From: Porphyridium purpureum
Lineage: Eukaryota
Direction of reading: 5' to 3'
Assembly (NCBI GenBank): GCA_008690995.1
Contig: VRMN01000005.1
Span: 930,001 to 994,000 of the forward strand
DNA: 64,000 bases
This document shows positions 46,321 through 64,000 of this stretch, piece by piece (position 1 is the stretch's first letter; each line of letters begins with the position of its first letter). The position numbers were made by a program, and so were the translations under genes. The notes below the pieces were generated by a model that was not told the origin of the DNA, searched no databases, and saw nothing but the letters and a program-made list of their open reading frames with translations.

Positions 46321-49300
46321 ATGGTGGGCACTAAAGGAAGGATGTATGTGGCTTGGCTGGCGTTGCTGTTTGTGGTGGGTGCGACGTGCGTGGCAGCAGT
46401 TCCATCGGTAGCCATTGACCGCAGTATTCTGGGCGTGCAGAGGGCGGAAGAGTGTTCTTCGACAAATGAGCTCCGGAGGAACGCGCCGCAGTGCAATGAT
46501 AAGGATGTGGTGTTCTCGAGCTCCACGGGCTGGGCACCGTCGGCCGGCGGGTGTGCGAGCTCGGCCGTGACGCGCGTGGAGGTGCCCGGGCTCGTGCAGG
46601 TCGACTATCCCGCGGGATGCGCGATGACCGTGAAGGCGGATGTGGGCGTCTCGGGCACTAACCAGTGCGAGGGCTTTTTGATGGTACTTGAAGCATTCCT
46701 TGAGCAGCAAGTGCCATTCTTGGCTCGAGTGAAAGATCTAGGTCTCGTGGATATTACGACGGACTTGTTGCAAGGCCCAGAGGATGTACTTCTCGGCCGC
46801 GAGCTGCGAGCGAGGGGTGACGGTGCGTCAAATTGCGACAAGCTTCCACTGGATGACGACGAAGTGTATTACTTTGCTGACCTGACATTTACCAATGAGC
46901 TGCAGCTGGATTTCCCAGTGCTCGAAAAACTTCCGCCAGTCGTGCGCAATCTCGTGGATGCGCAGAACAGTGGGGGAAGCGTGGGCGAGGTTATTCCTGG
47001 CGAAGCAACCGAATTCGCGGGAGAGCGCGTCTGTATTGCAACGTCGGTGTGCGGAGGATGGGATGACGGCTTTGCGTTACACATTGATCGACAAGGCAAA
47101 ATTGCAGAGGTTTTGACGATCCCACTTTTTCCGCCTTTCCTCACCTTCAAGCCGCTCGGAATCGCGTACTCGTTTAAAGGCCGCTTTGGACAAGAGTCGG
47201 AAACAAGGTACTGGTCAGGACGCTCCAATTTCGTGGTTTTGCTTCCGAACGTCAATTTTTGGATTCGTGGACGCATCCTAGGCGGTTTAGAGTTCTTCGA
47301 CGACAGTCAGTCGGGTTTTACGGTTGGTGCGGAATTAATGGTCGAATTGGCTTTGGACCGTGAGAGTCTTTTGGCGGAAACCGTGGAAGGAACAAGCATG
47401 ACCATTACCACGTACCGTGGTGGAGATGAAGTGTACAAGTTCGAGCTGCCCAGTCCAAAGAGCGGCATTTTCTTGCGGCACACTGAGCCAGCACAAGATG
47501 AGTGCAGCCCGCGGGGCGTGTTTGCAACATTGGATTCTGGAGGGTTTAATTTCAAGATGGGCGGCTCCGGAGGCGTGCTTAAAGACATGCTGGGAGACCA
47601 GACGCTGGCAGTCACGCAGGATTTTGCCGTGCTTTGGGACGATAGGAACCTGAGGGCGTTTTCCTGGAGACTGTCGCTCACGTGCAAGATATTCAATGCG
47701 CTCGACATTAATGGTAATATCTTATTGGAAATTCTCAATCCGGACGAGATCCAGTTGCGTACCTCAAGCGATTTGAGTGGGTGTGGCACTTCGCCTGCGT
47801 TAGAAGGTTACGATGATCCGTTCAAGCAGAAGATTGCGGCGGCATTCGGCTCAACAGGCGCAATCTTGTTCAGCGTTGGCACTACTGACACATGCCTTGA
47901 CCTGAAAGCGCTATCACTTTTATCTTTGAAGGTGGAAAGTTGCGGTTTCTTCTATGCAATTGGATTTGGTGGTGACTTTTTGACGCGCATTGCGGCGCGC
48001 ATAACGGTTGCCAGCCTGGCGAGCGTGGCGGGGGTTCTGGAGTTGGGCTTCGGTGCTCAGAGTGGCCGTGTGAGCGGTTCGGTTGACCTCGCCGTCATCG
48101 TTCTGGGCTTGCCTGCCACAGCTGAAATATCTGTGGATGGTCAATTGACTGATCCGTGGACGGCTTGGAACTGGCAGATCAATATGCCGAATATTCCTTT
48201 GAAGAAGCTTGTGCCAGAAGAAATCGTCGATGCCGTGGATCGGGCTGGCGAATCAGTGAAGGAGGAGAAGGACAACCTTTTTAATTATCTTGCTGACAGA
48301 GAGGAGTCCTTCCGGAAAGGTGCGGAGGCCTTTGTAGGCGCAATCGGTGAAATTGCTGAGTGTTCAGTGGAGCTTGTGGAATCCTTTTTTGAATTACGTC
48401 AGCCGCAATGCAATCTCGACAACTTTGAGAGCCTGTGGAAGCAACTCTTTGAGGTGAATCCTGAGAATCTCGAAGCATACTTTGCAGACAAGTTCAAGTC
48501 AGTCCTCAAGACGGGTTGTGAGTGGGTAAAGAATTTGATCCCGAGTTCTCGCGAAATACTCTCCCCTCCCGTGGAGATTGGACGGGATGAGTTTGGATGT
48601 CGACAATGGGAAGTGTATGAGTATGTTGATACGTGCGACAAGTTCCTGGCCATTTTAAGCGGAGGACTGTCTTGCCTTTATAGGGGGAAACCGTGCAAGG
48701 AGGTGATTCGGATTGATAAGGATCCCGCATGCGGTGAAGACCATGCACTAAAATACAAGAACGCGGAAGACATGTACGAGCAAATGAAGGACGCCCAGTT
48801 GAATTTGGCAAGTTTCGAAGCGACGGCGGCCAAGGACTTGGAATTTTTCGGTCTGTCTCCAGAAGAAAAGCTAAAGATTATCGAGGAAAACACAGATTGT
48901 GAGTACACAAGTGCAAAAGTCGGTGCCAACAATCAGATTACAGTGCAAGTGGAGTGCAAGACGGTCAGATTTATTTCCAGGACCGAGCTTGTCGAAGTTT
49001 CTTTCTCACGAACAGACATAGTGGACGCGACAAATGATGCAACGCTGCGGGCTTCGGAAGAGCGCATCGTGACCAAAACCAACATGGAGGCGGCGGCCAA
49101 ATTCAGCGGGGAGTTTTACAACCCAGTTCCGCCGTTGGAAGAACCGCGGGAGAAAGTGCAGCCTGTTCTGGAGCGACCGCGAGATATCGAGGTGCCGTGT
49201 ACCAGTTCGCTTGCGCGAGTGACAACGCGCGTGGCTGTGGTTGATGTGGAATGCCAAGGCGGCAATCCGATCGGTGCCACAGATGAACTCCTCGAAGATG

Positions 49301-50496
49301 ATGGCTGCGGAGAAGAGAAGATCAGGCGCACATTCAGGTACACGGATGCGTGCGGGCAGGTAGCGGACCCGGTGCAAATGATTATCACCAAGAAAGCCGT
49401 GGGAGTGTCTGCACCAGAACGTATCGCTCCACAAATGTTTGCTTGTGAAGAGCCAGTGGCTGATGGGTACAATGCGCCGGCGACAATATTTGACCTCAAT
49501 TCGGTGAACGCACCATGCTCGGATGATCTAAGTGTGTCATATTCCGACTCGGATATTCGATTTGTTTGCTCTGGACAAGGGATCAAGGGTTGGAACGTAC
49601 CGCGCTTGTACACCATCGAGGATGAGTGCGACCAAACAGATACGACTAATCAGCTTGTGGTTCGCACAGACTACGATGAGCCTGAGTGGGTGAGCGTACC
49701 GAAAATTCAAATTGTGTCGTGTCGAGCTGATATAAGCACCGCGTCGCTCGGGCTGCCGATGGCGGAAGACAACTGCGATCCTTTGGAGGTCACGGCATCC
49801 TTGCTCACGTACAATGATGACGATCGTATGCAGCCGCCTTGTCCGATTGGATTTTACCGGGCGTTTGAAGTGGCTGATCGCGTGTGTAACGCAAATCAGG
49901 CGGTGCAGCGCATTGAAGCGTTCCGGTTCGAGTTCCGTCGTGATGTGATCAGCGCCAAGGCACCTAAGGCGAGTGATGTGCACCAAAGGTATCCGCAAGC
50001 TTTCTACGATGCAACCTCGCTCCTGCCAACGTTTACGGTAGAAAAAATCAAGAAGGGCAAGCCGAGCCTGCAGATCTTCCGCCTCGAAGGTGTGTATGAT
50101 GCGGTTTTGAACGAACCGAGCATGACATGCAACTTTACGTTCGAAGGACTAACGTCGGCGGAGCAGGAGCAGCAGGCATTGAGTGTGGACTTTTTGAACG
50201 TGGATGACAATGTTGATTTGGGCGTGGCGGGTCTTGGAGATGGAGTGGGTCGGTGGGACGCGCTACCGTACGAAGGCATCAGCTGGCCGGATGCACTTCA
50301 GTTGATTGGAGAAGGTGGACGGACGTATTTGCGCGTCAAGCTCTTCCCCGCCGAGTTCGCCGTGCTGCACGAGTATATCGGTCAGTACTCATATGATCGC
50401 GGCGGCATGATGGTGCGTGCCCCAACCATTTGTGTCTCGCAAGCAAACGTCACTTACGAAGACTACATTGCGTTCACCCTGGTGACGGTGCTCTAG
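46321..50496 (+). CDS. Large secreted protein with three Cys-containing HYR-like repeats
   Basis: Signal peptide MYVAWLALLFVVGATCVAA (ATG 46321 or 46342). Repeats include C..IRRTFRYTDACGQ, C..VPRLYTIEDECDQ..Q.V..D..EP and AEDNC..C..YRAFEVAD. A TATATAAA lies at about 46220. Confidence 0.8.
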   Translation: MVGTKGRMYVAWLALLFVVGATCVAAVPSVAIDRSILGVQRAEECSSTNELRRNAPQCNDKDVVFSSSTGWAPSAGGCASSAVTRVEVPGLVQVDYPAGCAMTVKADVGVSGTNQCEGFLMVLEAFLEQQVPFLARVKDLGLVDITTDLLQGPEDVLLGRELRARGDGASNCDKLPLDDDEVYYFADLTFTNELQLDFPVLEKLPPVVRNLVDAQNSGGSVGEVIPGEATEFAGERVCIATSVCGGWDDGFALHIDRQGKIAEVLTIPLFPPFLTFKPLGIAYSFKGRFGQESETRYWSGRSNFVVLLPNVNFWIRGRILGGLEFFDDSQSGFTVGAELMVELALDRESLLAETVEGTSMTITTYRGGDEVYKFELPSPKSGIFLRHTEPAQDECSPRGVFATLDSGGFNFKMGGSGGVLKDMLGDQTLAVTQDFAVLWDDRNLRAFSWRLSLTCKIFNALDINGNILLEILNPDEIQLRTSSDLSGCGTSPALEGYDDPFKQKIAAAFGSTGAILFSVGTTDTCLDLKALSLLSLKVESCGFFYAIGFGGDFLTRIAARITVASLASVAGVLELGFGAQSGRVSGSVDLAVIVLGLPATAEISVDGQLTDPWTAWNWQINMPNIPLKKLVPEEIVDAVDRAGESVKEEKDNLFNYLADREESFRKGAEAFVGAIGEIAECSVELVESFFELRQPQCNLDNFESLWKQLFEVNPENLEAYFADKFKSVLKTGCEWVKNLIPSSREILSPPVEIGRDEFGCRQWEVYEYVDTCDKFLAILSGGLSCLYRGKPCKEVIRIDKDPACGEDHALKYKNAEDMYEQMKDAQLNLASFEATAAKDLEFFGLSPEEKLKIIEENTDCEYTSAKVGANNQITVQVECKTVRFISRTELVEVSFSRTDIVDATNDATLRASEERIVTKTNMEAAAKFSGEFYNPVPPLEEPREKVQPVLERPRDIEVPCTSSLARVTTRVAVVDVECQGGNPIGATDELLEDDGCGEEKIRRTFRYTDACGQVADPVQMIITKKAVGVSAPERIAPQMFACEEPVADGYNAPATIFDLNSVNAPCSDDLSVSYSDSDIRFVCSGQGIKGWNVPRLYTIEDECDQTDTTNQLVVRTDYDEPEWVSVPKIQIVSCRADISTASLGLPMAEDNCDPLEVTASLLTYNDDDRMQPPCPIGFYRAFEVADRVCNANQAVQRIEAFRFEFRRDVISAKAPKASDVHQRYPQAFYDATSLLPTFTVEKIKKGKPSLQIFRLEGVYDAVLNEPSMTCNFTFEGLTSAEQEQQALSVDFLNVDDNVDLGVAGLGDGVGRWDALPYEGISWPDALQLIGEGGRTYLRVKLFPAEFAVLHEYIGQYSYDRGGMMVRAPTICVSQANVTYEDYIAFTLVTVL

Positions 50497-51199
50497 GCGG
50501 GATGGTTTGCAGAGCCATCCAGTCGCTGTCCAGCATGGTTTGGTTTATAAGAAGTATGAGATTTTTGGAGCTTGAAACTGTGTGTGTTTTTTGCAGCACT
50601 TTATTATGCAGTCCCAGTTCGGTACTCCGCACCCGCGCTCTGGGATGAGCCGAAATGGGATGTCCAAGTGCTTTTGTCTTGCTGACATCTAGCGTCGTGT
50701 TTTTTCGTCCTTTTTTTTTTTTCCTGCTGGTAAAATATAAAACTTGCGTGACTTTAAAGCGAGGATGTCTCGCCTCGTGCACTTATATCGTAGACAGGCG
50801 CCGAATCTTTTCCTCTAGCCATCTGGCAGCGGATATCTACGTATAATAATGCATCAATTTGAAGAGCGAGCTCAACGCGTTACCAGCTATGGCCAAGCGC
50901 TAAGCGCGTCCGGTTCTGGCTGGGCGGCGTCCAAGGGTAGCGATCTGCGGATGGCGCATCCGGGCGCGTGTATTCTAGAGCGGTCGTCCCCGTAGCTTGT
51001 GCGCGCCGTTCATTTATCAGTGTGGACGTCGGGGGCACGCTTTGAGCTCGGCCTGCCCGCATCGGGTCGTGCAATCGAAAGAAGAAAGGCGCTTACGATC
51101 CTGAGCGAGACTGTGCTGCGCCTTGTTCAGCAAAGCTTTTTGTAGCTTAGCTTGGAGCAGGAGAATGACCATCAGACCAGGCGTCAGTACAGCGCGCTG

Positions 51200-52457
51200 G
51201 CCGCGCATGAGCATGTGATCTGTGCGGAAGATCAAGCCGCCCTGCGAGGCATGCTGGAACCGGCTGGCCTGGTGGCTTTCGTTCCAGATGGCGCCATCTT
51301 GCTGCGACTGCATGGAGCGAGTGAGCTTCCGATGCCTTCAGCGTCTGCGCTCCCGTTTTCCTCGCCAGACGCGCTGCGCGTCAGCATGACGCTGCCGAGC
51401 GGCAAGACGCTGACTGGTATGGGCATTCGAAAGGGAGTGAATCTTATTGTCGGAGGCGGCTTTCACGGAAAGTCGACACTCTTGCAGGCGATCGAGTTAG
51501 GCGTATATGACCATGTGCCCGGCGATGGGCGAGAGTTTGCCTCGTGCCTGGCTTTTGCGTCCAAAGGCACACTCAAGATGGTCGCGCGGTGACGACGCTC
51601 GACATCTCGCCGTTCATTTCAAAGCTGCCATTCGAGCGTGCCACAAATGGCTTTTCGACTGCCGACGCATCTGGCAGTACGAGCCAAGCGGCGAACATCA
51701 CCGAGGCGCTGGAAATGGGATGTGATCTGCTTATCTTTGATGAGGACACATACGCGACCAACTTTATGTATCTGGATGCGGTCATGTCGGCGCTCGTGGG
51801 CAAGCACAAAAAGCCAATCACGCCCTTTTTGGAACGTGTCCGCGTGCTCGACGAATAGCACGGGATCTCGAGCCTTTTGGTGGTGGGCAGCTGCGGTGCG
51901 TTCTTTGATGTTGCTGATACCATGATCGTGATGGAGACTGCTACAAAGCGTACGATGTCTCAGACGAAGCGAAAAGGATTTCGTGTACCCAAGGTCGCGG
52001 TGGCGCGCAGCAGGTGAGCACGGCCGTGCTGGACAATGACGCGGAGCTGTCGGCCTCGCTGGGTTCGGACAGGAAGATCCACTTGCGCTCGCTGGCACCC
52101 GCCGGCGGTAGCAAGGTGTATGTGCGTGACATGGGGCGAATCCAGTATGGCTCGGAGGAGTTTGCGATCAACCTTCGCGCGCTCGAGCAGCTCGTTGAAT
52201 TGGGACAGACGCGCTTGATTGCGGACGCCATGCACTATGTGGAGATGGTGAGCAAGCAGACCGCGCCGGTGCAAGACATGAAGAAGCTGGCTGTGCGTGT
52301 CGAGGCTGCGCTGGACGCGAAGGGTCTGGACGCCGTGGCTCCGAGCGGATGGAAAGGTATTGGCTACTACTCACGGCCGCGCCCCATCGAGCTCGCGGCC
52401 GCGATCAACCGGTGGCGGCTTTTGAAAGTGTCCATCGACGCGTCCGCGAAGGACTAG
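51200..52457 (+). pseudogene. ABC_ATPase (PF09818-type / MRB1590-like) pseudogene, 5'-truncated
   Basis: EDQAALR...GLVAFV, GMGIRKGVNLIVGGGFHGKSTLL, DHVPGDGREF, frameshift, DGR..DISPFI, STADASGSTSQAANI, DEDT.ATNFM, in-frame TAG at 51856, a second frameshift, then RPRPIELAAAINR. Confidence 0.88.
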
Positions 52458-53627
52458 ACTGTGCTTCGAAGCATGTGAATATGAAAGGCATTTGAAAAGG
52501 TGAGAGTGCAAGGGTCTCTACTTCCGCCACGCTGCTTGCATGTGGCAAACCAAGATGCACCATGTGTTCTTCGGGCTGACCACCGAGGACCTTACGCGAA
52601 ACGTGACTAGTGCCTCGTTTGGGACATGGTAGCCACCGCGCACGAGCGGTTCCGCTCGCGCCATGCGCACGTCGCCTGTCAAACCATCTTGTCGCTCACA
52701 AGTGTACCCCCTTCGCTAGCCCACCCCGATTTTCTACACGCGCGAATCCGCGCCGCGCTGGCACGGGTTACTCTAGGGTTACTCTGAAATCGCTTTACAT
52801 TATAAATCTAACTTTAAATTCTCGCACGCTTGATGATGACAAGCGCACGAGCTCGGATGACACAACCCTTCTCAGATGACCGAACCCCAGCAACACGACG
52901 CACACAGCACAGAGAACACAACCACACGACGCACACAACACAGACGACGAATACCCGGGGCGTGGAAAATCCAACGTATAGGGCCTCTACTATTGCCCTT
53001 CGCGTCGGCACAGACAGCACCGGTCTCGACAGGGGCAGGGTGTCGTAACGGACAAAGCCGCCGTCTGCCTTCGGTGCTCTTGGAGCACCGAAACCCCCCA
53101 GACACGATGTGCTGCTGGCTCTGCTACACAGGCTCAGCAAAAGGCCCCACGCCTTCCGACGACCACGCCCAGGCACCCGACACCAAAGAACAACTCTTCC
53201 TTTATTCTCTGTTTCCTGCTCCCTTGCCTCTACTTCTTCCGCTCTCTAGAAATCCGGGGAACCGCACGGGCCCGCGCCCATTATATACCCCGCCGTCCTT
53301 GCTGTCCTTGACGCGGAAGGGAGAAATTATTTCTCCCAAAAGGCTGGGCTTTCTTCCGTTCGTTCCACGGAACGAAGCCACAGCCAGCCACGTCAGCAAG
53401 CGGCTCAATGGGTGCTGGCCGGCCGCCAAGCGGCTCCTGCTTCCCTCGGACACGCGACTTCGGCTCCTCGGGGCGAAAGACAACAATGCACAAACCAGAG
53501 GTACAGGGTAAAAAACCACGCGGGCGAAAAAGCCCCTGTACCTCAAACAATTCCGAGACGCCGGGTTACTCTGGTTACGATTTTACTGTCGGATCCTTAA
53601 CCTAAAGATAATCGCAAATCTAATGCA

Positions 53628-56600
53628 TTACCACTGTCCCGGAGCAGTGGCCAATGTCGAGAGACATGGTGTGGGCGCCAGGGAGCGGAGGCCCGAAGAG
53701 AGCCATTGCAGTCCCGCCACGGGGATGGCGGGTGCCGAATGCCGCAGAAGCACGGCCTCGGCTGCCGACCGGAAGACGGCCAAGGAAAGGGCCCGATGGA
53801 GAATCATCGAGGCTTGGCCGCGCCGCAGCTGCTTGGCCATCTGGAATGACCCCGCGAGCGAGGCCAGGAAAGGTCGGGCATCGTCGCCCAGGCGCCCAAA
53901 GATGTCCAGCACCAGCGGGCAAAACGAAGTCGGAGCCACCGCCGCAGAGTGAGCGGTGGCGCTGACTGCCGGCGGGCCCGGACGAGCCGACACGAGCGAA
54001 GTGTAGGCCGACAGCTTGGCCGCAGTCTTGATGCGAATGGCGGAGCCGGGCGTGCGCCGCGCACCTGCCTTGTCCGGCAGGACGACCGAGACGTCGACGC
54101 CGGTCGTGCCAATCAGTACGTCGTACGGCCGCCGAGCCGTGCTGGTGTCGCACACCGCGGGCTCGCGCACGGTCACCAGACCCGCCGCGTGGGCAAAGTC
54201 CCGGAGCGCTTCTGCCACGCGTTCGTGGCGCCCGTAGCGCGAGGGCCCGAACACACAAGCGAGCGCGTGCCGGCCCAGAGCGTCCAGGCGCTCGCCACAA
54301 ATGGCACCGGTCGTGGCCGAAATGGCCGGGCACCGAGTCTGCGAAGCAAACTGGGCCAAGCGCGTCGGGAGCCCGAGCATGTGGCGCACCGCTGCTTGCC
54401 ACACGTGCGGCCGCATCCGAGTCGCGTGACCTGCCAGAGGTGTAGCGCTCGGCATGCTCAGCCAAGCCAGCGCAAACGGAGCGGAAATGCCGTGCCTGCG
54501 GTGGAACTCCCACGTCGTGGTGCCTTGGTCAGAGAGCCAGTCTGTCTGCATTTTGCGGAAAAAGCGACGGCAACTCTGCGTCTGGGACGACAGGAGTGTT
54601 CCGGGAGGCGCATCGTCAGCGGCGACCGGCGCTGGGAGACAAGCCAGAGCCGCCTGGTCGCTGTGGAACCGAGCATCCCAGCGCACCAAAGTGGGTGGCA
54701 CCACATCATCGGGTACCTGGTCCAAGGCACGCGCGGCTGCACGGCTGCCTGCCGCGAACGCGAACGGAGCAACGTCGGTGAGCGCGGTCAGGCCGAGGCC
54801 CCCCATTGACAAGGGCAAGCGCCACTCGGGTCGGACGTCGGTGCCGTCGAGGCAGTCCGCCGGCGCAGTCCCGACTGTGCGTGCGACGCAGTGCCGCCAG
54901 CCTTCGTCAAAGGAAGCGAGCTCCGCACGGATCACATCGGCCGGCATGGTGCGCGTCAGGTGCGCGAGGCGGCGCGGGCCCACGCTGCCGCGGAGGAGGT
55001 GAAACGCCTCTTCGGAGCACGGCAACTCGGACACGGTGCGAGCCAGGTCGAGGACCTTGCGAGAGAGACGCGCGATGGGCGCCAGTGCACGGCCTGCACC
55101 GGTCGCGTCCAGGGGCACACCGAGAAGCTCCGCCTCGGACCACGAAGTGACGAGCAAGTCTTGCAGGCCGTCCGGCACATCGCTGCGCGTCATCGTGCCC
55201 GTCAAGATAAACTCGGTCTTTGCGCGATTGATCGCCAGGCCATGGGCCTGCGCGTCGTGCTCGAAGGCCAGAAGGAATGCAGCCAAGTGCGCTGGCGTGC
55301 CGACGACACAGCCGTCGTCCAAGTACCATACTTGGTGCACCTGCGGCGCCGAGAACTGGGCCAAGACGTTTTGCAGGACCAACGAAAACAAGAGCGGGCC
55401 AAGCGGGTCCCCTTGCTGCACGCCCCGAGCGCTGTACAGCATTTGGGTCCCGAGCCGAAGAGGAGAAGGTGTTGAGTAAGTTGACCGCACCAGCGGCCAC
55501 AACTCGGGAAAGCGCGCGTGCACCAAGCGAAGCAGCGTGTGGCGACTGACCGTGTTGAAAGCGTTCGCCAGGTCAATTTTCAGGGCCGCTACGGGCTCGG
55601 ACTGCGTTGGCTCGAGCACGGCCATGCGAGTACCCATGATGGCGGCCTCCAGGCCCGACTTGCGGCCTACGCCGAACTGCAGCGGAAGCAGGCTGTCCAC
55701 GGCAGCTTGGCCGAGGCAGCGGAGCGCAAGCTTGCCGAGCGCGCGACGAAGCACCTCACCCACCGCGATGGGTCGCACGCCGCCATCCTTCTTGCGCAAA
55801 GGAATAAGGCGGGCGTGGTTCCAGAGCGCTCCGGCCTGGCCCTCGAAGCCACGACGAACGAGCGCCTGCGACACTCGCAGCAGAGCCACTTGGACCTTGG
55901 AGCCGGCCACCTCGGTCTGAAGCGCTTGATGCAGCAGACTTGCCGACCAGCGGGACGGACCGCTCCCGCTGGTGTGGGGAATGGCGAGGATGAGCTGACG
56001 AATGTCGTCGCCCTCCCAAGGAACGTCGGCTGCGGATGTGGAGTCCTGACCAGGCCCGTGCGCGTCTTGGCGCTGTGAGCTGGTGTCGGCGGCTGACGGA
56101 TGCAGCGCGCGCAGCTTGGCAAGCACGTCATCAGTGACCTGATGAATGCCGCTGGACTCGAGAAGACGCGCGGCAGCCCCGATGTGGTGCGCGCGCATGT
56201 GCTTCTGAACCTGCTTTGCGAGCAGGTCTGGAGTCAGCGTACCCGTTGGCAAAGCAGCGTCTACCGGGACGGCCGAAACAAGCTCAGTGATGCTGTCCGC
56301 GCGCCACTTGTGGAGTCGGTCCACCAAGAAGGCCGCTCGTGCGCGGGACGGCTGTCGCCCGGGCGGCAGGCACAGAACCAATGTCGGGAACGTCCACAGC
56401 CGGCTCAGAGCGCGCACTTGCTCCAGTTCCGACGGCGCCCGCGCCAAGTCCTCCAGCATGGCTGCGAGCTCGAGCGCCACCGTGGCACTGAGCCGCTGCG
56501 GCACCCGCTTCCATGTTCTGACCTGCATTGCCAAAACCGCATCGACAAAACGGACGAGTGTATGGATGGAGGCGGCACCGAAAAACTCCGAGGGAGAGTT

Positions 56601-57599
56601 GCGGAGTTGCGCAAACACGTCGTCGAGCCCAGTCAGGTCATCTGCTGCGCGGTTGCGCCGGACAGCCAGCGTCTGGGCATGGGTGAGGCCCGAGCCACAA
56701 AGCACTGGGTCCAGGCATCGCGAGATGGCATGCGGGTGGTTCAGCGAGTTGACCTCGCAAATCTTGCCGCACGCTCGCTGGCCAACGCCCAGCGTGCGCA
56801 GAACCGCGGGCGGGACGGCGCGGACCTGCGCTGCAGAGTGGCGCGAGAAGTGGCGCACCTGCGAGGACCGAAGGTCGAGGCGAGTGTCACAGACTGGGCA
56901 CTTGGGCTTCGCGGTCGTACATGGTCCGCACTGACATGCCGAGTCAGCCTGGGTTCGTGGCACCGCCAGCCCGCATTTGTTTCTGCGCAGTTCCAGCGCG
57001 CCCCACACGTCCGCCGGTGGCATGATCGTGGGATGCTCGCGCCCCCAGTGGCGGCCGACGTGGGCCATGGAGCTGCTCGCAAACGGGCAACGCGGCTCCG
57101 GGCACGGATATTGCGGTGTCCGGGGCCGTGCTAGGCCGCCGCGACTCTGCGGCCGCTGTCCGTGGTCATCTGATGGCTGGCCTGCTCGCTCACGCTGGGG
57201 CAGCCAGTCATCCCCAGAGTCGGAGGTCGAGTAGGAGCTGTCGGTGGGCGACTCTGTATCGCCCAGGATCGGTGCACGGGAAAGCGTCGGACGCCGTCGC
57301 CGGAGTCCCGGCGCCATGATGGTTTCATTGCCCGTGCTCGGAGCGGGCCGACTTGGCGCGTCATTGGACGCGGAGGATGTCCGTTCGGCGCCAGTCTCGC
57401 GCACAGAAGTCAGACTGCCCCGTTGTCGGAGTGAGACTGCGGCATGCTCGGTGCGTACACCGACGTCCCCGCCGGCATCTGGAGTGTCCCAGGCCGCCCA
57501 GTCAGAGTCCGACTCGGACCCTGCCCGACCGGCTGCTTGCCGGTTCGGGGCATCCCCGAGAGTGGGTACAAACGTATCCTTACTCATCATGGTATTCAT
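53628..57599 (-). CDS. Retrotransposon ORF2: C2H2 fingers, reverse transcriptase, CCHC finger, REL endonuclease
   Basis: CPEPRC..H...H and CPVC..H..H; LIPLRKKDGGVRPIAVGEVLRR; DLANAFN; GVQQGDPLGPLLF; WYLDDG (55311-55328); LPLSMGGLG; C..CGERLDALGRHALAC...RHERV; RRPYD...VDVSVV...K; PLVLDIFG. Confidence 0.95.
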   Translation of the reverse strand: MNTMMSKDTFVPTLGDAPNRQAAGRAGSESDSDWAAWDTPDAGGDVGVRTEHAAVSLRQRGSLTSVRETGAERTSSASNDAPSRPAPSTGNETIMAPGLRRRRPTLSRAPILGDTESPTDSSYSTSDSGDDWLPQRERAGQPSDDHGQRPQSRGGLARPRTPQYPCPEPRCPFASSSMAHVGRHWGREHPTIMPPADVWGALELRRNKCGLAVPRTQADSACQCGPCTTAKPKCPVCDTRLDLRSSQVRHFSRHSAAQVRAVPPAVLRTLGVGQRACGKICEVNSLNHPHAISRCLDPVLCGSGLTHAQTLAVRRNRAADDLTGLDDVFAQLRNSPSEFFGAASIHTLVRFVDAVLAMQVRTWKRVPQRLSATVALELAAMLEDLARAPSELEQVRALSRLWTFPTLVLCLPPGRQPSRARAAFLVDRLHKWRADSITELVSAVPVDAALPTGTLTPDLLAKQVQKHMRAHHIGAAARLLESSGIHQVTDDVLAKLRALHPSAADTSSQRQDAHGPGQDSTSAADVPWEGDDIRQLILAIPHTSGSGPSRWSASLLHQALQTEVAGSKVQVALLRVSQALVRRGFEGQAGALWNHARLIPLRKKDGGVRPIAVGEVLRRALGKLALRCLGQAAVDSLLPLQFGVGRKSGLEAAIMGTRMAVLEPTQSEPVAALKIDLANAFNTVSRHTLLRLVHARFPELWPLVRSTYSTPSPLRLGTQMLYSARGVQQGDPLGPLLFSLVLQNVLAQFSAPQVHQVWYLDDGCVVGTPAHLAAFLLAFEHDAQAHGLAINRAKTEFILTGTMTRSDVPDGLQDLLVTSWSEAELLGVPLDATGAGRALAPIARLSRKVLDLARTVSELPCSEEAFHLLRGSVGPRRLAHLTRTMPADVIRAELASFDEGWRHCVARTVGTAPADCLDGTDVRPEWRLPLSMGGLGLTALTDVAPFAFAAGSRAAARALDQVPDDVVPPTLVRWDARFHSDQAALACLPAPVAADDAPPGTLLSSQTQSCRRFFRKMQTDWLSDQGTTTWEFHRRHGISAPFALAWLSMPSATPLAGHATRMRPHVWQAAVRHMLGLPTRLAQFASQTRCPAISATTGAICGERLDALGRHALACVFGPSRYGRHERVAEALRDFAHAAGLVTVREPAVCDTSTARRPYDVLIGTTGVDVSVVLPDKAGARRTPGSAIRIKTAAKLSAYTSLVSARPGPPAVSATAHSAAVAPTSFCPLVLDIFGRLGDDARPFLASLAGSFQMAKQLRRGQASMILHRALSLAVFRSAAEAVLLRHSAPAIPVAGLQWLSSGLRSLAPTPCLSTLATAPGQW

Positions 57600-59703
57600 G
57601 AGCCCCGGAGGGCTGTGCAGATGACGGCGACTGGCTCGTGCGCGCTGGCGCCGTGGCCTGGATGAATGCGCCCCAAATGGCGTCATCCACACGGGGGCAG
57701 CCCGCACTGACCCCCTCGCACCGACTGCGGTGCATGCTGAGGGCCTTGCTGGACGTGCCCAGCTTGAACACGCGACCGCACGGGTACGCCCCGATGCCCG
57801 CCTGCGCCAGGCGCGCGCGATCAAGAAATGCGCCCGCAGCCGCGTGGGCGTCATTCATGTGCGCAACAAGTGCCTCGGTGGTGGCGTGCACGGTGTGGCT
57901 GCTCGTGCCTGCTGCACAATCCGCAGCGGGACAGCGAAGAGCCTGGTCTGTGCGTGTCGGGTCACCAACAAACGCGTCAGGAGCATCCGAGTGTGCTGCT
58001 CCAGGCAAGCTGGCCAAGCTCCCTGCCGGTGCGGTGCCGCTGTAGTCGGCCACCAGCCGCGCGTCTGGATGCGGCGGAGCTTCGGCTGCAAGCGCGGCCT
58101 GCGGGGCGTCGACGTCGGGCCCGACCTGCCCGTCTGGTCCAGGTGGTGTCTGCTGCTGCGAATCCGTACCCGCCGCTGGCTGCACGAAAAGCGCGCGAGA
58201 CGCCCGGGGTGTCCCGTCACGGAGAGCCCCCGAAGGTCGCTTCGGGTTGTGCTCCGGGGAGCTTTTCTCTGGTGCACCGTGCTTTGCTGCCGGTGAGCGC
58301 TCTGGCGTGCGCACCACTGCGCAAGGTCCTGCGACGAACTGTGAGGCCGGTCCCGGAGGACTGTCAGGACAGAGCGGCATAGACGAGTCCGAGCAGAATG
58401 CGACGGAGCTGGTCGAGCTCTCCTCGTCGGAGTGACCCGACGTGGTCGCCGCTGGGCTTTCATTGTCACCCATATCCACCGGCAGTCCGCATGCCTCACG
58501 GTCGGTCATAGTACTCGCGGTGCCTGGTGATACCGGCGGTGGTTCAGCCACACTCGCCCCAGGCTGAAGGGGCACGTGTGTTTCTGGCACCAACTCGGCT
58601 GGACGTGCGGCGCTACCCGACGTGGTGGCGCGAACCTTTGCAGCTGGTGGCCCAGGCGTCGTGCGCTCCAGGGTCTTGCGCAGGCGGTGGAGAAGTCCCA
58701 GCACAGCCTGCTTGCTCTTGAAAGAGCGGGCGTCCAGCGCACCCACGCGGTCCGTGTGCGTATGGGCGTCACGTACGAGAGCCGTGCGGGCCTTCTCCGA
58801 CAGACTCTGGCCCCAGCGGGCCACGTCTACGCCAAGGCGCTGCATAAGCGCGGCCGTGCGGGTTGTCCCGTTCCAGAACGGGATGGTGTTCACATGTACT
58901 GCCCTCACTCTCGGCAGCATGTCCACCAGCACCTCGGCGTACCCGACCGGCACCAGCACCAGGAAGGATGGAGACGGCGCGCCCGGCAACGACAGGACCT
59001 CCACTGGAAGTTTGCCCTCCACCTGCCGGCGCGGAGAGCTCGAAGCCACCAGCGCCCGGATGCCTTTGCGCACGGAGCGCGGCTCTGCCGAGGTGTGGCA
59101 GCTTGTCAGGACAATCCACTCGAACGACTGCATCCCCAGTGCAGTCTGGGTCCATCCAGCGCCGTCACGGCTGCCAGACGCAGCCTTGAGGTTGCTGGCC
59201 CGCGGGGTTTGTGCAAGCGCTGCTACAGGTGCCCGGCCTGTGAGTGTGCGGCCCATGTGCCCATCACCCTGGCCGGTCGCAGGGACTGGCCCCGCTTGAG
59301 CGACTCGTGCCGCCCACGACAATGAGCCCGATGGCACTGAGACGGAGGGAAGCGCTGCGGGGATGCCGCCAGCCGCGCGTGCCACACTGCCGATCTCCAC
59401 TGCAGCGGCATCGGTGCACCCAAGAAATGGCGGCGCCACAGTCTTCGCGTCGTGCGGGCGCGCGGGGCCCCACGAACGCATCAGCTCGTCTGCTCGAGCG
59501 CGGGCAAGACCCAGGATCCCTTGCACCATGAAGTCGTCGCCGGACGCCCGGGCCAGCGACCTCACCTCCGCGTCGGCCGCCTCCAAGTCACGGAGCAGCG
59601 CCTTGACGCGCACCAAAACCGCCACCGTCGGATCGGCGTCCGCGACCACCTCGATCGCCACGCCGGTGTTCCGACCCAAACCATCGCCTGCTGGGTCCCC
59701 CAT
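57580..59703 (-). CDS. Retrotransposon ORF1 (Ala/Pro-rich, C-terminal C2H2-like fingers)
   Basis: ORF of over 700 aa directly upstream of, and overlapping, ORF2. It contains CPAADC...HMNDAH and PCG...MHRSRC. The first ATG is at 59703. Confidence 0.75.
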   Translation of the reverse strand: MGDPAGDGLGRNTGVAIEVVADADPTVAVLVRVKALLRDLEAADAEVRSLARASGDDFMVQGILGLARARADELMRSWGPARPHDAKTVAPPFLGCTDAAAVEIGSVARAAGGIPAALPSVSVPSGSLSWAARVAQAGPVPATGQGDGHMGRTLTGRAPVAALAQTPRASNLKAASGSRDGAGWTQTALGMQSFEWIVLTSCHTSAEPRSVRKGIRALVASSSPRRQVEGKLPVEVLSLPGAPSPSFLVLVPVGYAEVLVDMLPRVRAVHVNTIPFWNGTTRTAALMQRLGVDVARWGQSLSEKARTALVRDAHTHTDRVGALDARSFKSKQAVLGLLHRLRKTLERTTPGPPAAKVRATTSGSAARPAELVPETHVPLQPGASVAEPPPVSPGTASTMTDREACGLPVDMGDNESPAATTSGHSDEESSTSSVAFCSDSSMPLCPDSPPGPASQFVAGPCAVVRTPERSPAAKHGAPEKSSPEHNPKRPSGALRDGTPRASRALFVQPAAGTDSQQQTPPGPDGQVGPDVDAPQAALAAEAPPHPDARLVADYSGTAPAGSLASLPGAAHSDAPDAFVGDPTRTDQALRCPAADCAAGTSSHTVHATTEALVAHMNDAHAAAGAFLDRARLAQAGIGAYPCGRVFKLGTSSKALSMHRSRCEGVSAGCPRVDDAIWGAFIQATAPARTSQSPSSAQPSGAHEYHDE

Positions 59704-59954
59704 CGCTGCAAACACCGCGCCGCCGAGTCGCGCGTCCACCCCTGCATGGATCGCGGCGGCTCGCGCGCCCGGCTCCGATTCGCCTAATAGCAATTCGCGT
59801 TAGGGTTTCCTTTTCCTAGTGTAGCTCATTAATGGAAAGTGCATTGCCCAGTGTTTTCACAGGCAAATGTGGAGCCAGAGAAGAGCTACCCGCAGACATT
59901 TTCGCCTTTCTCAAACGCCTCCTACTTCGAGCCAGTCCTTCGATTTAATGGTTT

Positions 59955-60304
59955 TGAGGGGTAGTCACTATCTGCTATATTAGTGGTTTTCAAATGCTAC
60001 GGGGTGGTCACCATCTGCTACAAAAATTGCATTGAAATGCTTATGCAAAACTCAGTACAAATTTAGCTTTTTTCAGAAGGAAATTTCGTGGTAAAATCGT
60101 CTTGTTTGAGGGGGTAGTCACCAAACGTAAGGGGGTAGTCACCGTGTGAAAGCGTATGAAAGTATCTCATTTTCATAGAGACGTGTTGTATCTAAATGAT
60201 TGTTTCCTGAGGGGGTAGTCACCATATGCAAGTGTATAAAAATGCTCCAGTTACTTATACACATTCTGTACTTAAATGGCATCAATCTGAGGGGGTGGTC
60301 ACCA
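59955..60304 (+). repeat. Six direct copies of GGGG(G)TRGTCAC(C/T) in AT-rich DNA, partly as a diverged 80-bp tandem unit
   Basis: Copies start at 59958, 60001, 60110, 60131, 60211 and 60291. Confidence 0.92.
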
Positions 60305-60783
60305 AAAGGAAGCGTGTCTTTAGTTAAACAGGCGGCAACTACATGAGCGCATGGATTTTACCAGTGAAATCTAGCTTTCCAAAGTCAAATCATACAGCGA
60401 GGCCACTTTGCCACGAAAACTCGCCATGGCAAGCGCATATGCGGAACCCCCATGTTTACGATTTTTCCTGGTCAAAATGAGCGTTTTGGTACAGAAGCCT
60501 CTGGTTTCTATGTGGGGGAATTATTTTAGTAAGAGTAATTATCGTACTAAAACGATCGCATTTGACGGGTCGATGTTCATTTCAATGTCATCCCTACAGT
60601 GTTCGTGGGCAAGCCTTTAGCCGTGGAGTGTGAGCGAGGGTGGTCGTCGGGGTCGAGGCGGTCGAGGAGTGGTCTAGAGAAGTTTGAGGACGGGGCGGCG
60701 GGTTGTGGGCAATGGGCAGCAGCGTACCACAGTGTTTTTACTCATGAGGCAATCACACATGCAGAGTGGAGCTAGTGTCGGTT

Positions 60784-63700
60784 TTATATTTTCTGAAGGC
60801 TCCATTCATTCGCCATGAGCTTTGTCGCTCGCTTGTACAACTCGAAGCCTTCCCAGCTCACGAGTTCGCACAGCTTGTGTGTGTAGAAGATGGTCAACTC
60901 TTCTGCTCCACCAGATCCGAGAGTGCCCATCAAGGAGAAAGCTTTCCGATACACGGCTTCCATTCTGTGCTTTAAGGCGCTCGGAGCCTTTTCGCATTTC
61001 TTTTCGCACACTTCGGTGGGGGCCAGACAACGGAAACACATGCCTAAGTTTGGCGCGAGTCTTGGTCTGATGATATTTCCGGCCGACCGTTTGCTGCAGG
61101 AGACGTGGGCCGCTGCAGATGACCGTGAGTATCGAAACCCACAGTATGGGCAGGTGTTGGGAAACCTGTTCGGATTCTGGCATGTGCCAAGACATGTGAC
61201 ACCACTGCACCAGATGCATTTGTACATTGCAGTATTCCATGTCGCTCTTGCTTGTCTGATCGTCTGTAATTGCTCGCCCAGCGCGCGCGCTGGTGCAGAG
61301 CTAGCCAGTGGCGTCGCCTCGTGCTGCTGCGAGCTGGCCTGCGCGAGCAAGTGCAAAGTTGGTTGCTCCGGCACGTGCGAAGTGGGCTGCGCCATCACGT
61401 GCGAGCTTGGCGCTGCGACCGTGTGCGAGCTTGGCTGGGCCAGCATGTACGACGTCGGTTGCGCTATCATGCCCGAACTTGGTTCTGCAACCACGTGCGT
61501 ACTTGGCCGCACCATCTCGTGCAAGCTTGGCTGCGGCACCGTCACTGGGTTGGCTGTCTGAGTCACCATGGAGCGAGTGGTTAAAAGGTTGAGCACGCTG
61601 TGAACTTCGTGAGAGGATAAGTCAAGTGCACTCTCAACGAAGCGCCGTAGACCGGCTTTACTATGCCAAGGGTCGCGCTCAAAACCTGGAACCTGGCGAA
61701 TGCTCGGGCTGTCACGCTGGTCCAATGCGTTCTGGAAATTTCTGTCGAAGAAAAATTCGCAGTGGGCGTGCTCACCGTCGCGACCAACTCTGCCCCATGC
61801 TTGGACCACTTGGCTGAGCGAATGTGCTCCGCGCATCACGGCGCAGTACAAAACAGATTTGCAATTCAGAGATGAGCTCGCAGCGGATGTGCCAACGATT
61901 ACCCGCGCTTGCTGCAATGCCTCAGCGTCGAGAGCTTCACGTGCTGTCAGTTTGTAACATGCATCTGAGTAAGACTTTCTCATTTCGTCAAACCATGTGT
62001 CGGCTTCTGCATGAGTAGCACACATTATCAGTGCACGCCCACGACGAGCAAGCGCATTTTCCTGGATGGCGGCCGTAATCTGTTGAGTGCAGATTGCGCT
62101 CGTGCCAAACTCTGTCACGCTGATGTTCAATGATTCTCGAAGTGGTCGTGCACGCAAAAAGGAGTCGATGTTCACACCAAACTCTTTGGCAACGAACGCA
62201 GCAGCATCTTCACTTATCGTCGCACTGAGAAATACAAAGCAGGATTTCGTCAAAAGCGACGCGCTCAGCTTGACGGACATTGACTCGCGGAACGAGTTAT
62301 GTTCTAGTACGACGTGACTCTCGTCCACGACAACGAGTGCGATGCGTTCTGCAATGCGTCTAAGAGCTGCACGTTGTGATGCAAGTGCATCCATGCTGGT
62401 GACGACGAGGCCGCCATGCGAACGCTCGGTACATGAGTACAAGTCAACGGCTTCAATCCTTCTACTTCTTGCCTCCTGCAATGCAGCAAACATGGAAACG
62501 CGAAGCGGTACCAAAAGCAGAACAAAGGCACCTTGCAAGCGAACGACTTTCTCCATGCACAAGTATGATGCTGACTTACCACTTCCGCAAGGATACTGTA
62601 CGCAAACGTTCTTGTCCATCAGAATTTCGTTCAGCATTTCAAGCTGCTTCCTTGCTTGCGGGCTGGCGACGGAAGCGCTACCATATACATCACGGAGCAA
62701 TGTGTCTGGCGTCAAACCCGCCAGTGCGGCCCATTCTCCGAGCGAACGCTCTCTCGGATGCACGGAGCCCATCCGTGACGAAGCGTGAGTTTCCGCGCCA
62801 ATCAGTGCAAGCCATGCGTCGCGACATTCCACTGTGAATGCAAACCAGTCTTCGTCTTTTACTGAAGCCAGGTAGAATGCGGCGTCTGTCGCAAGCGAGT
62901 GACCTGCGCCGCGGATCTTGTACTTTTGCGCAGGTGTGTCTACGGGCTGTATCCCTTGCGGGGCGGCAATTCCTCGGAAAGCGTCAGCGTTGTCTCGTAC
63001 GCAATGCAAGTAAAGATTGCGCAAGTCCCGTAAGGTCATGGGCACGGCGCAGAACTGCCCAACAGCACATTCTACTTGTGCAATCCACTCCTCCGGATTA
63101 AGTGCTGCACAAGTCGTTCTGCTGGCGCAGGCCCCAAAGTTTCGAAAGTCAATGCTCTCAGGTACATTTTGCCCCTGATTTTGCTGGCCAAGTATCTCGT
63201 CAATATATGCACTCGCAATCCAATGCATGATAAGCAGCACTTCTGCGACTTCCTCAGTTGGAAGATGCTCAACAGTTTCAGTTGCAAGCGCGCGACCCAA
63301 TTTCTTCTCAACAACCTCGACAACTCTCACTACACGAGTATTTAAAACAGGTCTAAGTGAATTTCCAACACTTCGGCTAGCGAGAACAAAAGTTTCCATA
63401 CTTGACTTTCGCGGCGGGGCACACGCGGCAGAGAACGCAAGTAATGCAAAATTGCTCAGTGCGTTGAAATCGATGTTCTGGCGTCTGGCGCTCGCGAGCA
63501 GTTCCGCAGGCTGAGCTGCATGTCGTTCACTGCCATCGAGTATAATTTCACCGAGCATTGGCGCCGTTGTATTATGCTGCGACAATACCCGGACCGAAAA
63601 GTTATCGCGCGCTCCAAGAACTCGGGCAACCAAAGCTCGAGCGGCCGCTCTGGAGCCATTGTACAAATTACCAAAGACCTTTGCTTGCACCAGCACTTCC

Positions 63701-63984
63701 GTCTTTAAGTGCATCCAGGAACCATTGCCCATAGCTTTCCATGCCACGTACGTGGATGGCTCTTGCGCGCTTCTGAAGACGGAGTGCATCATGTACAGTA
63801 CTTGCACACAGGGAACGTCGGAAAGAATCGTGTCGTTTGAGGTTTGTATTTCCCGGTCTTTCTCTTTCACAATTAGCCTCACAACCCACGCAGCTCTCAA
63901 AACCCAGAGCTGCGTGGCTGACAACTCACTTATCGTTAAGGCACTGCGACTGGTCAAACACGTGCCGGACTGCGATCCAGACAT
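60784..63984 (-). CDS. RecQ-like SF2 helicase with N-terminal tyrosine-recombinase-like domain and C-terminal Cys-rich tail (telomere-linked-helicase-like); frame is open to the window edge
   Basis: Helicase motifs I YPCGSGKS, Ia LLLVPL, II VVDESH, III FLSAT, V VGTSAASSSLN and VI QAWGRVGRDG. Upstream: PPRKSS, LRDLRNL, AGHSLATDAAFY. No in-frame stop between 63984 and 64000. Confidence 0.85.
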   Translation of the reverse strand: MSGSQSGTCLTSRSALTISELSATQLWVLRAAWVVRLIVKEKDREIQTSNDTILSDVPCVQVLYMMHSVFRSAQEPSTYVAWKAMGNGSWMHLKTEVLVQAKVFGNLYNGSRAAARALVARVLGARDNFSVRVLSQHNTTAPMLGEIILDGSERHAAQPAELLASARRQNIDFNALSNFALLAFSAACAPPRKSSMETFVLASRSVGNSLRPVLNTRVVRVVEVVEKKLGRALATETVEHLPTEEVAEVLLIMHWIASAYIDEILGQQNQGQNVPESIDFRNFGACASRTTCAALNPEEWIAQVECAVGQFCAVPMTLRDLRNLYLHCVRDNADAFRGIAAPQGIQPVDTPAQKYKIRGAGHSLATDAAFYLASVKDEDWFAFTVECRDAWLALIGAETHASSRMGSVHPRERSLGEWAALAGLTPDTLLRDVYGSASVASPQARKQLEMLNEILMDKNVCVQYPCGSGKSASYLCMEKVVRLQGAFVLLLVPLRVSMFAALQEARSRRIEAVDLYSCTERSHGGLVVTSMDALASQRAALRRIAERIALVVVDESHVVLEHNSFRESMSVKLSASLLTKSCFVFLSATISEDAAAFVAKEFGVNIDSFLRARPLRESLNISVTEFGTSAICTQQITAAIQENALARRGRALIMCATHAEADTWFDEMRKSYSDACYKLTAREALDAEALQQARVIVGTSAASSSLNCKSVLYCAVMRGAHSLSQVVQAWGRVGRDGEHAHCEFFFDRNFQNALDQRDSPSIRQVPGFERDPWHSKAGLRRFVESALDLSSHEVHSVLNLLTTRSMVTQTANPVTVPQPSLHEMVRPSTHVVAEPSSGMIAQPTSYMLAQPSSHTVAAPSSHVMAQPTSHVPEQPTLHLLAQASSQQHEATPLASSAPARALGEQLQTIRQARATWNTAMYKCIWCSGVTCLGTCQNPNRFPNTCPYCGFRYSRSSAAAHVSCSKRSAGNIIRPRLAPNLGMCFRCLAPTEVCEKKCEKAPSALKHRMEAVYRKAFSLMGTLGSGGAEELTIFYTHKLCELVSWEGFELYKRATKLMANEWSLQKI
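61330..61540 (-). repeat. Coding 24-bp (8-aa) degenerate tandem repeat P-S/T-x-H-x-x-A-Q, about 8 copies, inside the helicase ORF
   Basis: PSLHEMVR PSTHVVAE PSSGMIAQ PTSYMLAQ PSSHTVAA PSSHVMAQ PTSHVPEQ PTLHLLAQ. Confidence 0.85.
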
Positions 63985-64000
63985 TTCGTCGTGGATACTT

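What the first reader, a model, noticed from the sequence alone, without database searches (positions are those of the whole stretch)
52765..64000. Helicase + helicase-associated repeats + telomere-oriented REL retroelement: a fungal-style subtelomere module
Seen: a TLH-like helicase, a short-motif array and a CRE-like element sit head-to-tail on the same strand. All the telomere-like motifs have their G-rich strand on + (GGGTTACTCT, TTAGGGTTT, GGGGGTAG). Known: Magnaporthe chromosome ends combine TLH genes, helicase-associated repeats and telomere-targeting MoTeR elements, and Cryptococcus Cnl1 (CRE-like) also inserts at telomeres. Inference: this window approaches a chromosome end to the right, or preserves an old one. 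The retroelement 5' end would then be distal, as with other telomeric retroelements, suggesting an undescribed chromosome-end system in this alga.
Basis: partly seen in the sequence, partly recalled or inferred. Interest (0 to 1): 0.78.

Follow-up and report, generated by a model that had tools for sequence, protein, structure and literature searches.

The report
Red algal chromosome-end mobile stack
In the red microalga Porphyridium, a retrotransposon, a likely fragment of a second one and a multi-copy helicase gene with a predicted DNA-cutting recombinase domain are stacked in one direction; relatives of these genes appear to crowd the ends of assembly contigs, and the 11-letter repeat at the retrotransposon's tail is likely this alga's telomere sequence, which we found reported nowhere.

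Summary
The parts are real; the organism is Porphyridium purpureum. Three REL families and two helicase families exist in the genome. By accession order, 6 of 8 REL models on the five largest contigs lie within 5 genes of a contig end, and 6 of 8 helicase models lie beside a REL model. The domain before the helicase has a tyrosine-recombinase fold with R-K-R-H-Y kept; this scan had noted that for TLH-type genes of fungi, diatoms and moss (seen after my own test). Best reading: a reshuffled subtelomere with the end to the right, and TTACTCTAGGG as candidate telomere repeat. Not shown: a terminal repeat array, the window's place on its contig, or a fixed three-part module; partners vary, and the helicase would point away from the end, unlike Magnaporthe.

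The parts
52765..52785 (+). 1.9 copies of the 11-mer GGGTTACTCTA (unit TTACTCTAGGG): candidate telomere repeat left as an interstitial remnant
52765..52810 (-). 46-nt stub: 3' end of another retroelement plus its 11-mer tail (like a MoTeR relic); other contigs go on past 52810 with different sequence
   Evidence: loose end at 52810 in X4, joint 54322->52765 in X3 (one contig, depth 2.1); relic definition; which family it belongs to is not known
52812..53563 (-). Very high-copy LTR-like piece: TATA at 53287, AATAAA at 53206, terminal hairpin, sharp edge at 52810-52812 with many unrelated flanks, one of which reads TGGTATCA (primer-binding-site type) right behind the edge; cut short at 53563, other copies run at least 55 nt further
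   Evidence: LTR reading is inference, termini are not TG...CA
53563..53578 (+). GGGTTACTCTGGTTAC: 11-mer remnant at the 3' end of the full retroelement, joined to the LTR at a GGGT microhomology; another contig carries at least 27 nt of the repeat here
53628..57854 (-). ORF2 of REL retroelement family A: C2H2 fingers, RT (about 55119-55796), CCHC + RHE..E..RPYD..D endonuclease (about 53985-54332); open, 1408 codons
57580..59799 (-). ORF1 of the retroelement (739 codons stop to stop, one C2H2-like finger at its end), overlapping ORF2 in another frame
   Evidence: no Pfam hit
59776..59808 (.). 5' junction of the retroelement; TTAGGGTTT at 59800-59808; other contigs join different sequence at 59783
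   Evidence: (X1 contig ends 59776; X3 loose end 59783)
59958..60302 (+). Six dispersed GGGGTRGTCAC motifs in AT-richer DNA 3' of the helicase stop; on one contig with the helicase 3' end at raised depth
   Evidence: X1 contig 59890-61428 depth 460 against 118
60784..64000 (-). TLH-type recombinase-helicase gene, family H1 (runs out of the window; model 1329 aa); RecQ-type core about 61774-62649; 24-nt coding repeat 61328-61533; Cys-rich tail
62740..63840 (-). Domain before the helicase with predicted tyrosine-recombinase fold; catalytic-type residues at codons 63411 (R), 63306 (K), 63021 (R), 62901 (H), 62874 (Y)

Best explanation
This is most likely the inner part of a P. purpureum subtelomere, with the chromosome end to the right, built from mobile elements that likely target an 11-nt telomere repeat, TTACTCTAGGG. 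Shown: order, strand, domains, shared 11-mer at two unrelated 3' ends, multi-copy state. Inferred history: a REL retroelement inserted in telomere repeats (stub at 52765); an LTR element inserted 46 nt into it; the chromosome was cut inside that LTR at a telomere-like GGGT seed, by breakage and healing or by the REL endonuclease; family A then inserted by target-primed reverse transcription, 5' end outward, leaving 1.5 repeat units; a recombinase-helicase block was joined at its 5' side. Inferred mechanism for the block: the tyrosine recombinase cuts and rejoins DNA and the RecQ motor unwinds it, so the block copies itself among ends as a selfish unit; the six-fold motif may be its binding site (untested). 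Parts are shuffled between ends rather than inherited as one module.
For: End placement by accession order: 6 of 8 REL models on contigs 1-5 within 5 gene numbers of a boundary, both first and last positions, P about 3e-11 under uniform placement; 17 of 33 models on contigs under 100 kb; 6 of 8 helicase models within 5 numbers of a REL model. Models P0133 and P0016 run across two families, so elements stand in tandem. Same 11-mer behind two unrelated 3' ends in the window, longer in an X3 contig, and its translation SNPRV appears in model P0004 just after a stretch shared with a family-C model (0 such 5-mers in 119,256 residues of other proteins). Polarity as in FoTeR/MoTeR. Galdieria candidate repeat is TTTATT(T)AGGG, 10-11 nt. 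Housekeeping genes stop near 36 kb, then orphans, a broken multi-copy gene and repeats. Recombinase: R/K/R/H/Y kept in 29/27/28/24/28 of 29 aligned proteins; GH..Y motif in 18 of 30 clade proteins against 0 of 19 controls; top 15 VIA rows all tyrosine recombinases or topoisomerase IB, best Xer Z 8.3, 169 residues, rmsd 3.6.
Against: Contig ends are not telomeres, and repeat arrays break assemblies anywhere; accession order as position order is an assumption. Two REL models (9395, 9403) lie inside contig 1. The window's place on its 1.0-Mb contig is unknown. Helicase direction is opposite to Magnaporthe TLH. The X3 joint rests on one contig of depth 2.1. A chance 5-mer of the repeat's other strand (SRVTL) lies inside family-C RT. 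Fold model has pLDDT 63.5, Foldseek gave nothing at E<=0.001, Z near 8 is borderline. No element ends or empty site for the helicase block were found. TRAP found no telomerase in three red algae, though with other primers.
Confidence: 0.68

Rival explanations
1. Internalised old end: the stack formed at a telomere but now lies inside the chromosome after fusion or end capture, like MoTeR relics.
For: Only 1.5-2 repeat units; stub looks like a relic; helicase lies distal to the retroelement; an internal pair of REL models exists on contig 1; the last model of the window's contig (P0133) may mark either end.
Against: Retroelement and helicase frames are open and near-identical to other copies; gene density falls steadily to the right; most family members are at contig ends.
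Confidence: 0.15
2. The 11-mer is a self-made 3' tail or a non-telomeric satellite (for example centromeric); elements nest in repeat islands at which the assembly simply breaks.
For: Many non-LTR elements carry short tandem tails (recalled); no terminal array seen; contig ends are enriched for any long repeat.
Against: Families only 39-49% identical share the repeat behind unrelated 3' ends; it holds the TAGGGTTA core with the polarity of telomeric elements; both ends of contig 2 and probably of contig 13 carry the families.
Confidence: 0.12
3. The helicase is a domesticated host gene for end maintenance, spread passively by subtelomeric recombination; its recombinase domain only binds DNA.
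For: S. pombe tlh genes help recovery from telomere crisis (as summarised there); Ndc10 shows that this fold can be domesticated (row 31; role recalled).
Against: All five catalytic-type residues are kept in both 27%-identical families and in relatives at 10-28% identity. This rival concerns the helicase only and is compatible with a subtelomeric place.
Confidence: 0.3

Closest known systems
Magnaporthe MoTeR1/2 and Fusarium FoTeR telomeric retrotransposons (PMC7367193, PMC12857005); Cryptococcus Cnl1; CRE/SLACS/CZAR group
   Same: C2H2 fingers + RT + CCHC/REL; 3' end followed by the C-rich strand of a TAACCC-containing repeat; telomere-like motif at the 5' side; truncated copies, tandem copies, relic-like stubs; LTR element inserted into them; neighbours of TLH genes.
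   Different: Two overlapping ORFs; 11-nt target; three coexisting families; spacing of CCHC and RPxD differs; no reference sequence was on hand for a tree.
Telomere-linked RecQ helicases (TLH) and TLH-containing regions of fungi and Monosiga (PMC1635262; bioRxiv 10.1101/2024.02.27.582403)
   Same: About 1300-1400 aa, conserved domain just before a divergent RecQ core, near-identical multiple copies, short repeated motifs beside the gene, end-of-contig placement, partner of REL elements.
   Different: Red alga; two families; gene would point away from the end and alternate with retroelements; window family's model lacks N-terminal C2H2 and OrsD; no telomere repeats shown on both sides; the domain is read here as a tyrosine recombinase.
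Tyrosine-recombinase DNA transposons (Crypton, Starship captains; PMC11162782) and Xer/Cre
   Same: Catalytic fold and R-K-R-H-Y residues.
   Different: Fused to a RecQ motor; no defined ends, direct repeats or mobility shown; that paper's main text has no 'helicase', 'RecQ' or 'telomer'.
Galdieria sulphuraria candidate telomere repeat TTTATT(T)AGGG (PMC3622300)
   Same: 10-11 nt, ends in TAGGG, red alga.
   Different: Holds CTC in the G-rich strand; seen here only as short remnants.

Membership tests
MoTeR/FoTeR-type telomeric REL retrotransposon | Non-LTR RT with N-terminal C2H2 fingers | tested here: met
   RVT_1 E 1e-19; C2H2 patterns; best PDB hits are R2 proteins, E 2e-7
MoTeR/FoTeR-type telomeric REL retrotransposon | C-terminal CCHC + RHD/N..E..R/KPD..D/E endonuclease | tested here: met
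   C-X10-C-X9-H-X3-C-X8-RHE-X19-E-X10-RPYD-X8-D against the pattern; core residues met, several spacings differ
MoTeR/FoTeR-type telomeric REL retrotransposon | 3' end followed by C-strand telomere repeats, 5' end towards the chromosome end | tested here: inconclusive
   C-rich 11-mer follows the 3' end, but that it is the telomere repeat is not shown
MoTeR/FoTeR-type telomeric REL retrotransposon | Intact copies confined to chromosome ends | tested here: inconclusive
   6 of 8 models on contigs 1-5 at contig ends, 2 internal; contig ends are a proxy
CRE clade | RT phylogeny with CRE1/2, SLACS, CZAR, Cnl1, MoTeR1 | not testable with these tools
   No named reference among the 120 listed of 186 homologues; Atlas clusters unnamed
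TLH (telomere-linked helicase) | Divergent RecQ core grouping apart from canonical RecQ | tested here: met
   FastTree, 141 of 152 rows: both Porphyridium families on a 56-row side (SH-like 98) with all 3 OrsD-bearing proteins, apart from RQC-type, RECQL4-type and bacterial RecQ; long branches; Atlas top hits are long fungal helicases, 0.97
TLH (telomere-linked helicase) | Conserved ~250-residue 'TLH domain' before the helicase | tested here: met
   HMM from 28 non-Porphyridium upstream regions hits P0142 (9e-7) and P0008 (5e-5), 19 controls E>=0.3; no named TLH protein was in the set, so identity with the published domain rests on position
TLH (telomere-linked helicase) | Two N-terminal C2H2 motifs (absent in U. 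maydis) | tested here: inconclusive
   C2H2-like motifs at the start of P0142; none in model P0008, whose start lies outside the window
TLH (telomere-linked helicase) | Multi-copy, near-identical, next to telomeres | tested here: inconclusive
   6 + 4 models, raised depth, contig-end proxy; telomeres not seen
Magnaporthe helicase-associated repeats (HAR) | Tandem unit repeats only in TLH regions, some with telomere motifs | tested here: not met
   Dispersed 11-nt motif, not tandem units; telomere likeness at chance level; co-amplified with the helicase, so helicase-associated only in the literal sense
Tyrosine recombinase superfamily | R-K-(H)-R-H/W-Y residues and catalytic fold | tested here: met
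   first His of HxxR is not conserved; Foldseek E>0.001
Tyrosine-recombinase DNA transposon | Defined ends, empty sites or circles | not testable with these tools
   5' part of the block lies outside the window; no genome
LTR of an LTR retrotransposon (52812-53563) | TATA, polyA signal, PBS behind the 3' end, TG...CA termini | tested here: inconclusive
   TATA, AATAAA and a TGGTATCA flank in X1 and X15 fit; the visible terminus ends in TTTAAAG, not CA

The most novel reading that the evidence does not exclude
P. purpureum ends are arrays of inward-pointing mobile units of two kinds, three REL retroelement families and two active tyrosine-recombinase-RecQ elements, all aimed at a new 11-nt telomere repeat, and these arrays extend or rebuild the ends themselves, partly replacing telomerase.
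Probability: 0.15. Interest if true: 0.9.

Novelty: new variant of a known kind. Interest (0 to 1): 0.66.

Why it matters
Telomeres of mesophilic red algae are an acknowledged gap. This gives a concrete probe and TRAP primer (TTACTCTAGGG) for a transformable model alga, extends the TLH + telomeric REL pairing from fungi to a red alga, and offers an intact, culturable recombinase-helicase gene with which to test what TLH proteins do, a question left open in the TLH papers read.

Tried and rejected
No own genome, so position and recurrence were read from accession order only. Pattern scans for the 21-nt repeat: 1 hit in metagenome contigs (L001, a degenerate AT-rich repeat with no other likeness to the window; chance), 0 in prokaryote and viral contigs. 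Rfam at E<=1 over 50.5-64 kb: one chance hit; no tRNA; so the 750-nt piece is no known structural RNA, although it folds better than 20 shuffles (z -6.8 and -4.9). A Sultan-like tandem subtelomeric satellite was considered for it and dropped because of many unrelated flanks and the PBS-type flank; no back-joint was listed. X15 (RNA by guess) shows the same depth ratio as DNA, so it is no evidence of transcription. Likeness of 37.3-38.1 kb to the array region: not significant. Alignment search for named TLH proteins looked only at 3468-5000 aa and found none, uninformative. IQ-TREE did not finish; FastTree used. Parts without cover in X4 and X9 were not taken as absence. Literature: no paper found that gives a Porphyridium telomere (searches; listings only); rotations of the 11-mer hit 20 unrelated papers by listing; 'tyrosine recombinase' occurs in none of the 15 listed papers with 4 of 6 TLH terms, a narrow test; Rehmeyer 2009 not held; TeloBase's database cannot be searched here, only its one supplement.
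Full report
Organism and setting. The helicase has a 97% identical relative named as Porphyridium purpureum; its cluster has 6 models on 5 contigs, and the one that matches the window letter for letter (P0008) lies on a 1,003,435-bp contig. The first 36 kb carry housekeeping genes (10 of 16 long ORFs scanned have Pfam hits such as CCT, an AAA+BAH protein, a flavin oxidoreductase, TRM1, trehalase, EF-P). After that come orphan ORFs, a 1410-aa protein with a HYR-like hit, a frameshifted ABC-ATPase/MRB1590 gene and then repeats.

Anatomy. All coding parts point left. (1) 52765-52810: two units of GGGTTACTCT(A/G) and about 24 nt of unrelated sequence; X4 contigs continue differently behind 52810, so this is the 3' stub of another element. 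(2) 52812-53563: single contigs here have depth 5285 and 7300 in run X2, against 17 for the retroelement end; the tool warns that summed depth is no copy number, but these single-contig values point to hundreds of copies in that run and far fewer in X4 and X9. The left edge is sharp, with many unrelated flanks; one flank seen in X1 and X15 reads TGGTATCA directly behind the edge on the minus strand. TATA (53287) and AATAAA (53206) lie in LTR order on that strand. LTR elements are 8% of this genome (PMC6811547, passages). I read it as an LTR whose outer end is replaced at a GGGT microhomology: other copies go on with GGGTACCTC where the window has GGGTTACTC. (3) 53563-59782: a REL retroelement with two overlapping ORFs; X1 holds it as one 6,206-bp contig without a difference, so the frame change is real, and model P0132 also needs a join there. 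(4) Six GGGGTRGTCAC motifs, on one X1 contig with the helicase 3' end at depth 460 against 118 for the neighbouring unique contig. (5) The helicase gene.

The 11-mer. It follows two unrelated 3' ends in the window. An X3 contig (depth 740) has at least 27 nt of it before 53563. One X3 contig of depth 2.1 joins a copy cut at 54322 through CTCTA to 52765, a head-to-tail junction that may be an error. Model P0004 holds SNPRV, a translation of the C strand, right after a stretch that it shares with a family-C model; no such 5-mer occurs in 119,256 residues of other proteins, but SRVTL from the other strand occurs by chance inside family-C RT. FoTeR 3' ends are followed by TAACCC repeats (PMC12857005, sections 16, 18, 19, 20 read) and MoTeRs have their 5' ends nearest the chromosome end (PMC7367193, passages and section 28). 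By that polarity the end is to the right. Red algal telomeres are mostly unknown; Galdieria's candidate is TTTATT(T)AGGG, and TRAP failed in three red algae with other primers (PMC3622300, passages and section 13; PMC7046594, passages). The genome paper has no 'telomer' in its text or 7 supplements. No long array was seen here, so the repeat remains a candidate.

Recurrence. The RT search listed 12 P. purpureum clusters in three families, 39-49% identical to the window's protein. A second helicase family, 27% identical, has four identical copies. For 33 named models (25 RT, 8 helicase; the three models shown without accession are left out) accession numbers run monotonically with contig number. 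Three contig boundaries are pinned by family members on both sides (4358|4359, 6269|6275, 7468|7471): 6 of 8 models on contigs 1-5 lie within 5 genes of an end, in first and in last places; 2 lie at about 75% of contig 1. Spans on contigs 8, 9 and 13 fit end positions at average gene density, which is softer. 17 of 33 lie on contigs under 100 kb (3 of these assigned by position). 6 of 8 helicases have an RT within 5 numbers; the other two are neighbours of each other. Partners vary: window-type helicases lie beside family C, family A beside the second helicase. Limits: position order is assumed, contig ends are a proxy, and the window's own place is unknown.

The helicase is a recombinase-helicase fusion. 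Its core groups with long fungal-type helicases rather than canonical RecQ (long branches). The region before the core is homologous across that group. In 29 proteins at 10-28% identity, R, K, R, H and Y are kept in 29, 27, 28, 24 and 28, and the window keeps all five. The AlphaFold2 model (pLDDT 63.5, pTM 0.65) has tyrosine recombinases or topoisomerase IB in all top 15 VIA rows, best archaeal Xer at Z 8.3; Foldseek ranks XerA and vaccinia topoisomerase first but not significantly. The Fusarium TLH preprint (parts 1-3 of 4 read) describes a ~250-residue TLH domain at this place, of unknown function, in fungi and a choanoflagellate; bioRxiv supplements are closed, and its alignment figure could not be seen. 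No named TLH protein was in my set; U. maydis subtelomeric repeats carry OrsD (PMC10532341, passages). After this test I found that the scan had noted the same fold in fungal, diatom and moss windows; those are AI notes, not independent support.

Differences from the fungal layout. In Magnaporthe the TLH 3' end lies up to about 5.5 kb from the telomere and faces it, and HARs are tandem units, some with telomere motifs (PMC1635262, passages). Here the gene would face inward and lie beyond the retroelement, and the motif is dispersed, with chance-level likeness to the 11-mer. In X1 the retroelement is one sequence at half the depth of the neighbouring contig (GC bias may add to this), while helicase and array are three to four times deeper, so the three parts are no fixed unit.

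Verdict. A real subtelomere-type stack, likely near an end on the right (0.68); TTACTCTAGGG is a new candidate telomere repeat; a TLH + telomeric REL pairing in a red alga, which my searches did not find in print; new variant of a known kind; interest 0.66.

Noticed in passing
window 52812-53563: LTR-like repeat at very high and run-dependent depth (hundreds of times the retroelement in X2, a few times to tens in X4/X9), strongly folding (z -6.8), with a non-canonical terminus ending TTTAAAG; some copies begin at 52980 beside long unique contigs.
   Followed up: partly
P0142 (KAA8490233, 0256, 1580, 2709): Second recombinase-helicase family, four identical copies, with N-terminal C2H2-like motifs; three sit within 2 gene numbers of a REL model.
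   Followed up: partly
window 51146-52457: Frameshifted ABC-ATPase/MRB1590-like gene with many variant contigs: a multi-copy, probably subtelomeric pseudogene family.
   Followed up: no
window 46264-50496: 1410-codon ORF with signal-peptide-like start and HYR-like Cys domain; no contig of X4 covers 46.7-50.7 kb (not proof of absence).
   Followed up: no
window 37609-37695: 29-aa match (62%, E 0.003) to the odd N-terminus of family-B models P0014/P0134; may be a relic of end-type sequence where gene density drops.
   Followed up: no
window 53572-59776 against P0129-P0132: Family A is one unbroken sequence in run X1, yet the public models hold five copies at about 97-99% identity and X3/X4 are deeper: copy number may change between cultures.
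   Followed up: partly
contig 1 models KAA8499395 and KAA8499403: Two REL families 8 genes apart inside the 5.7-Mb contig: a misjoin or a fused old end.
   Followed up: no
window 61328-61533: 24-nt coding repeat in the helicase varies by 0-4 extra units among near-identical copies.
   Followed up: no
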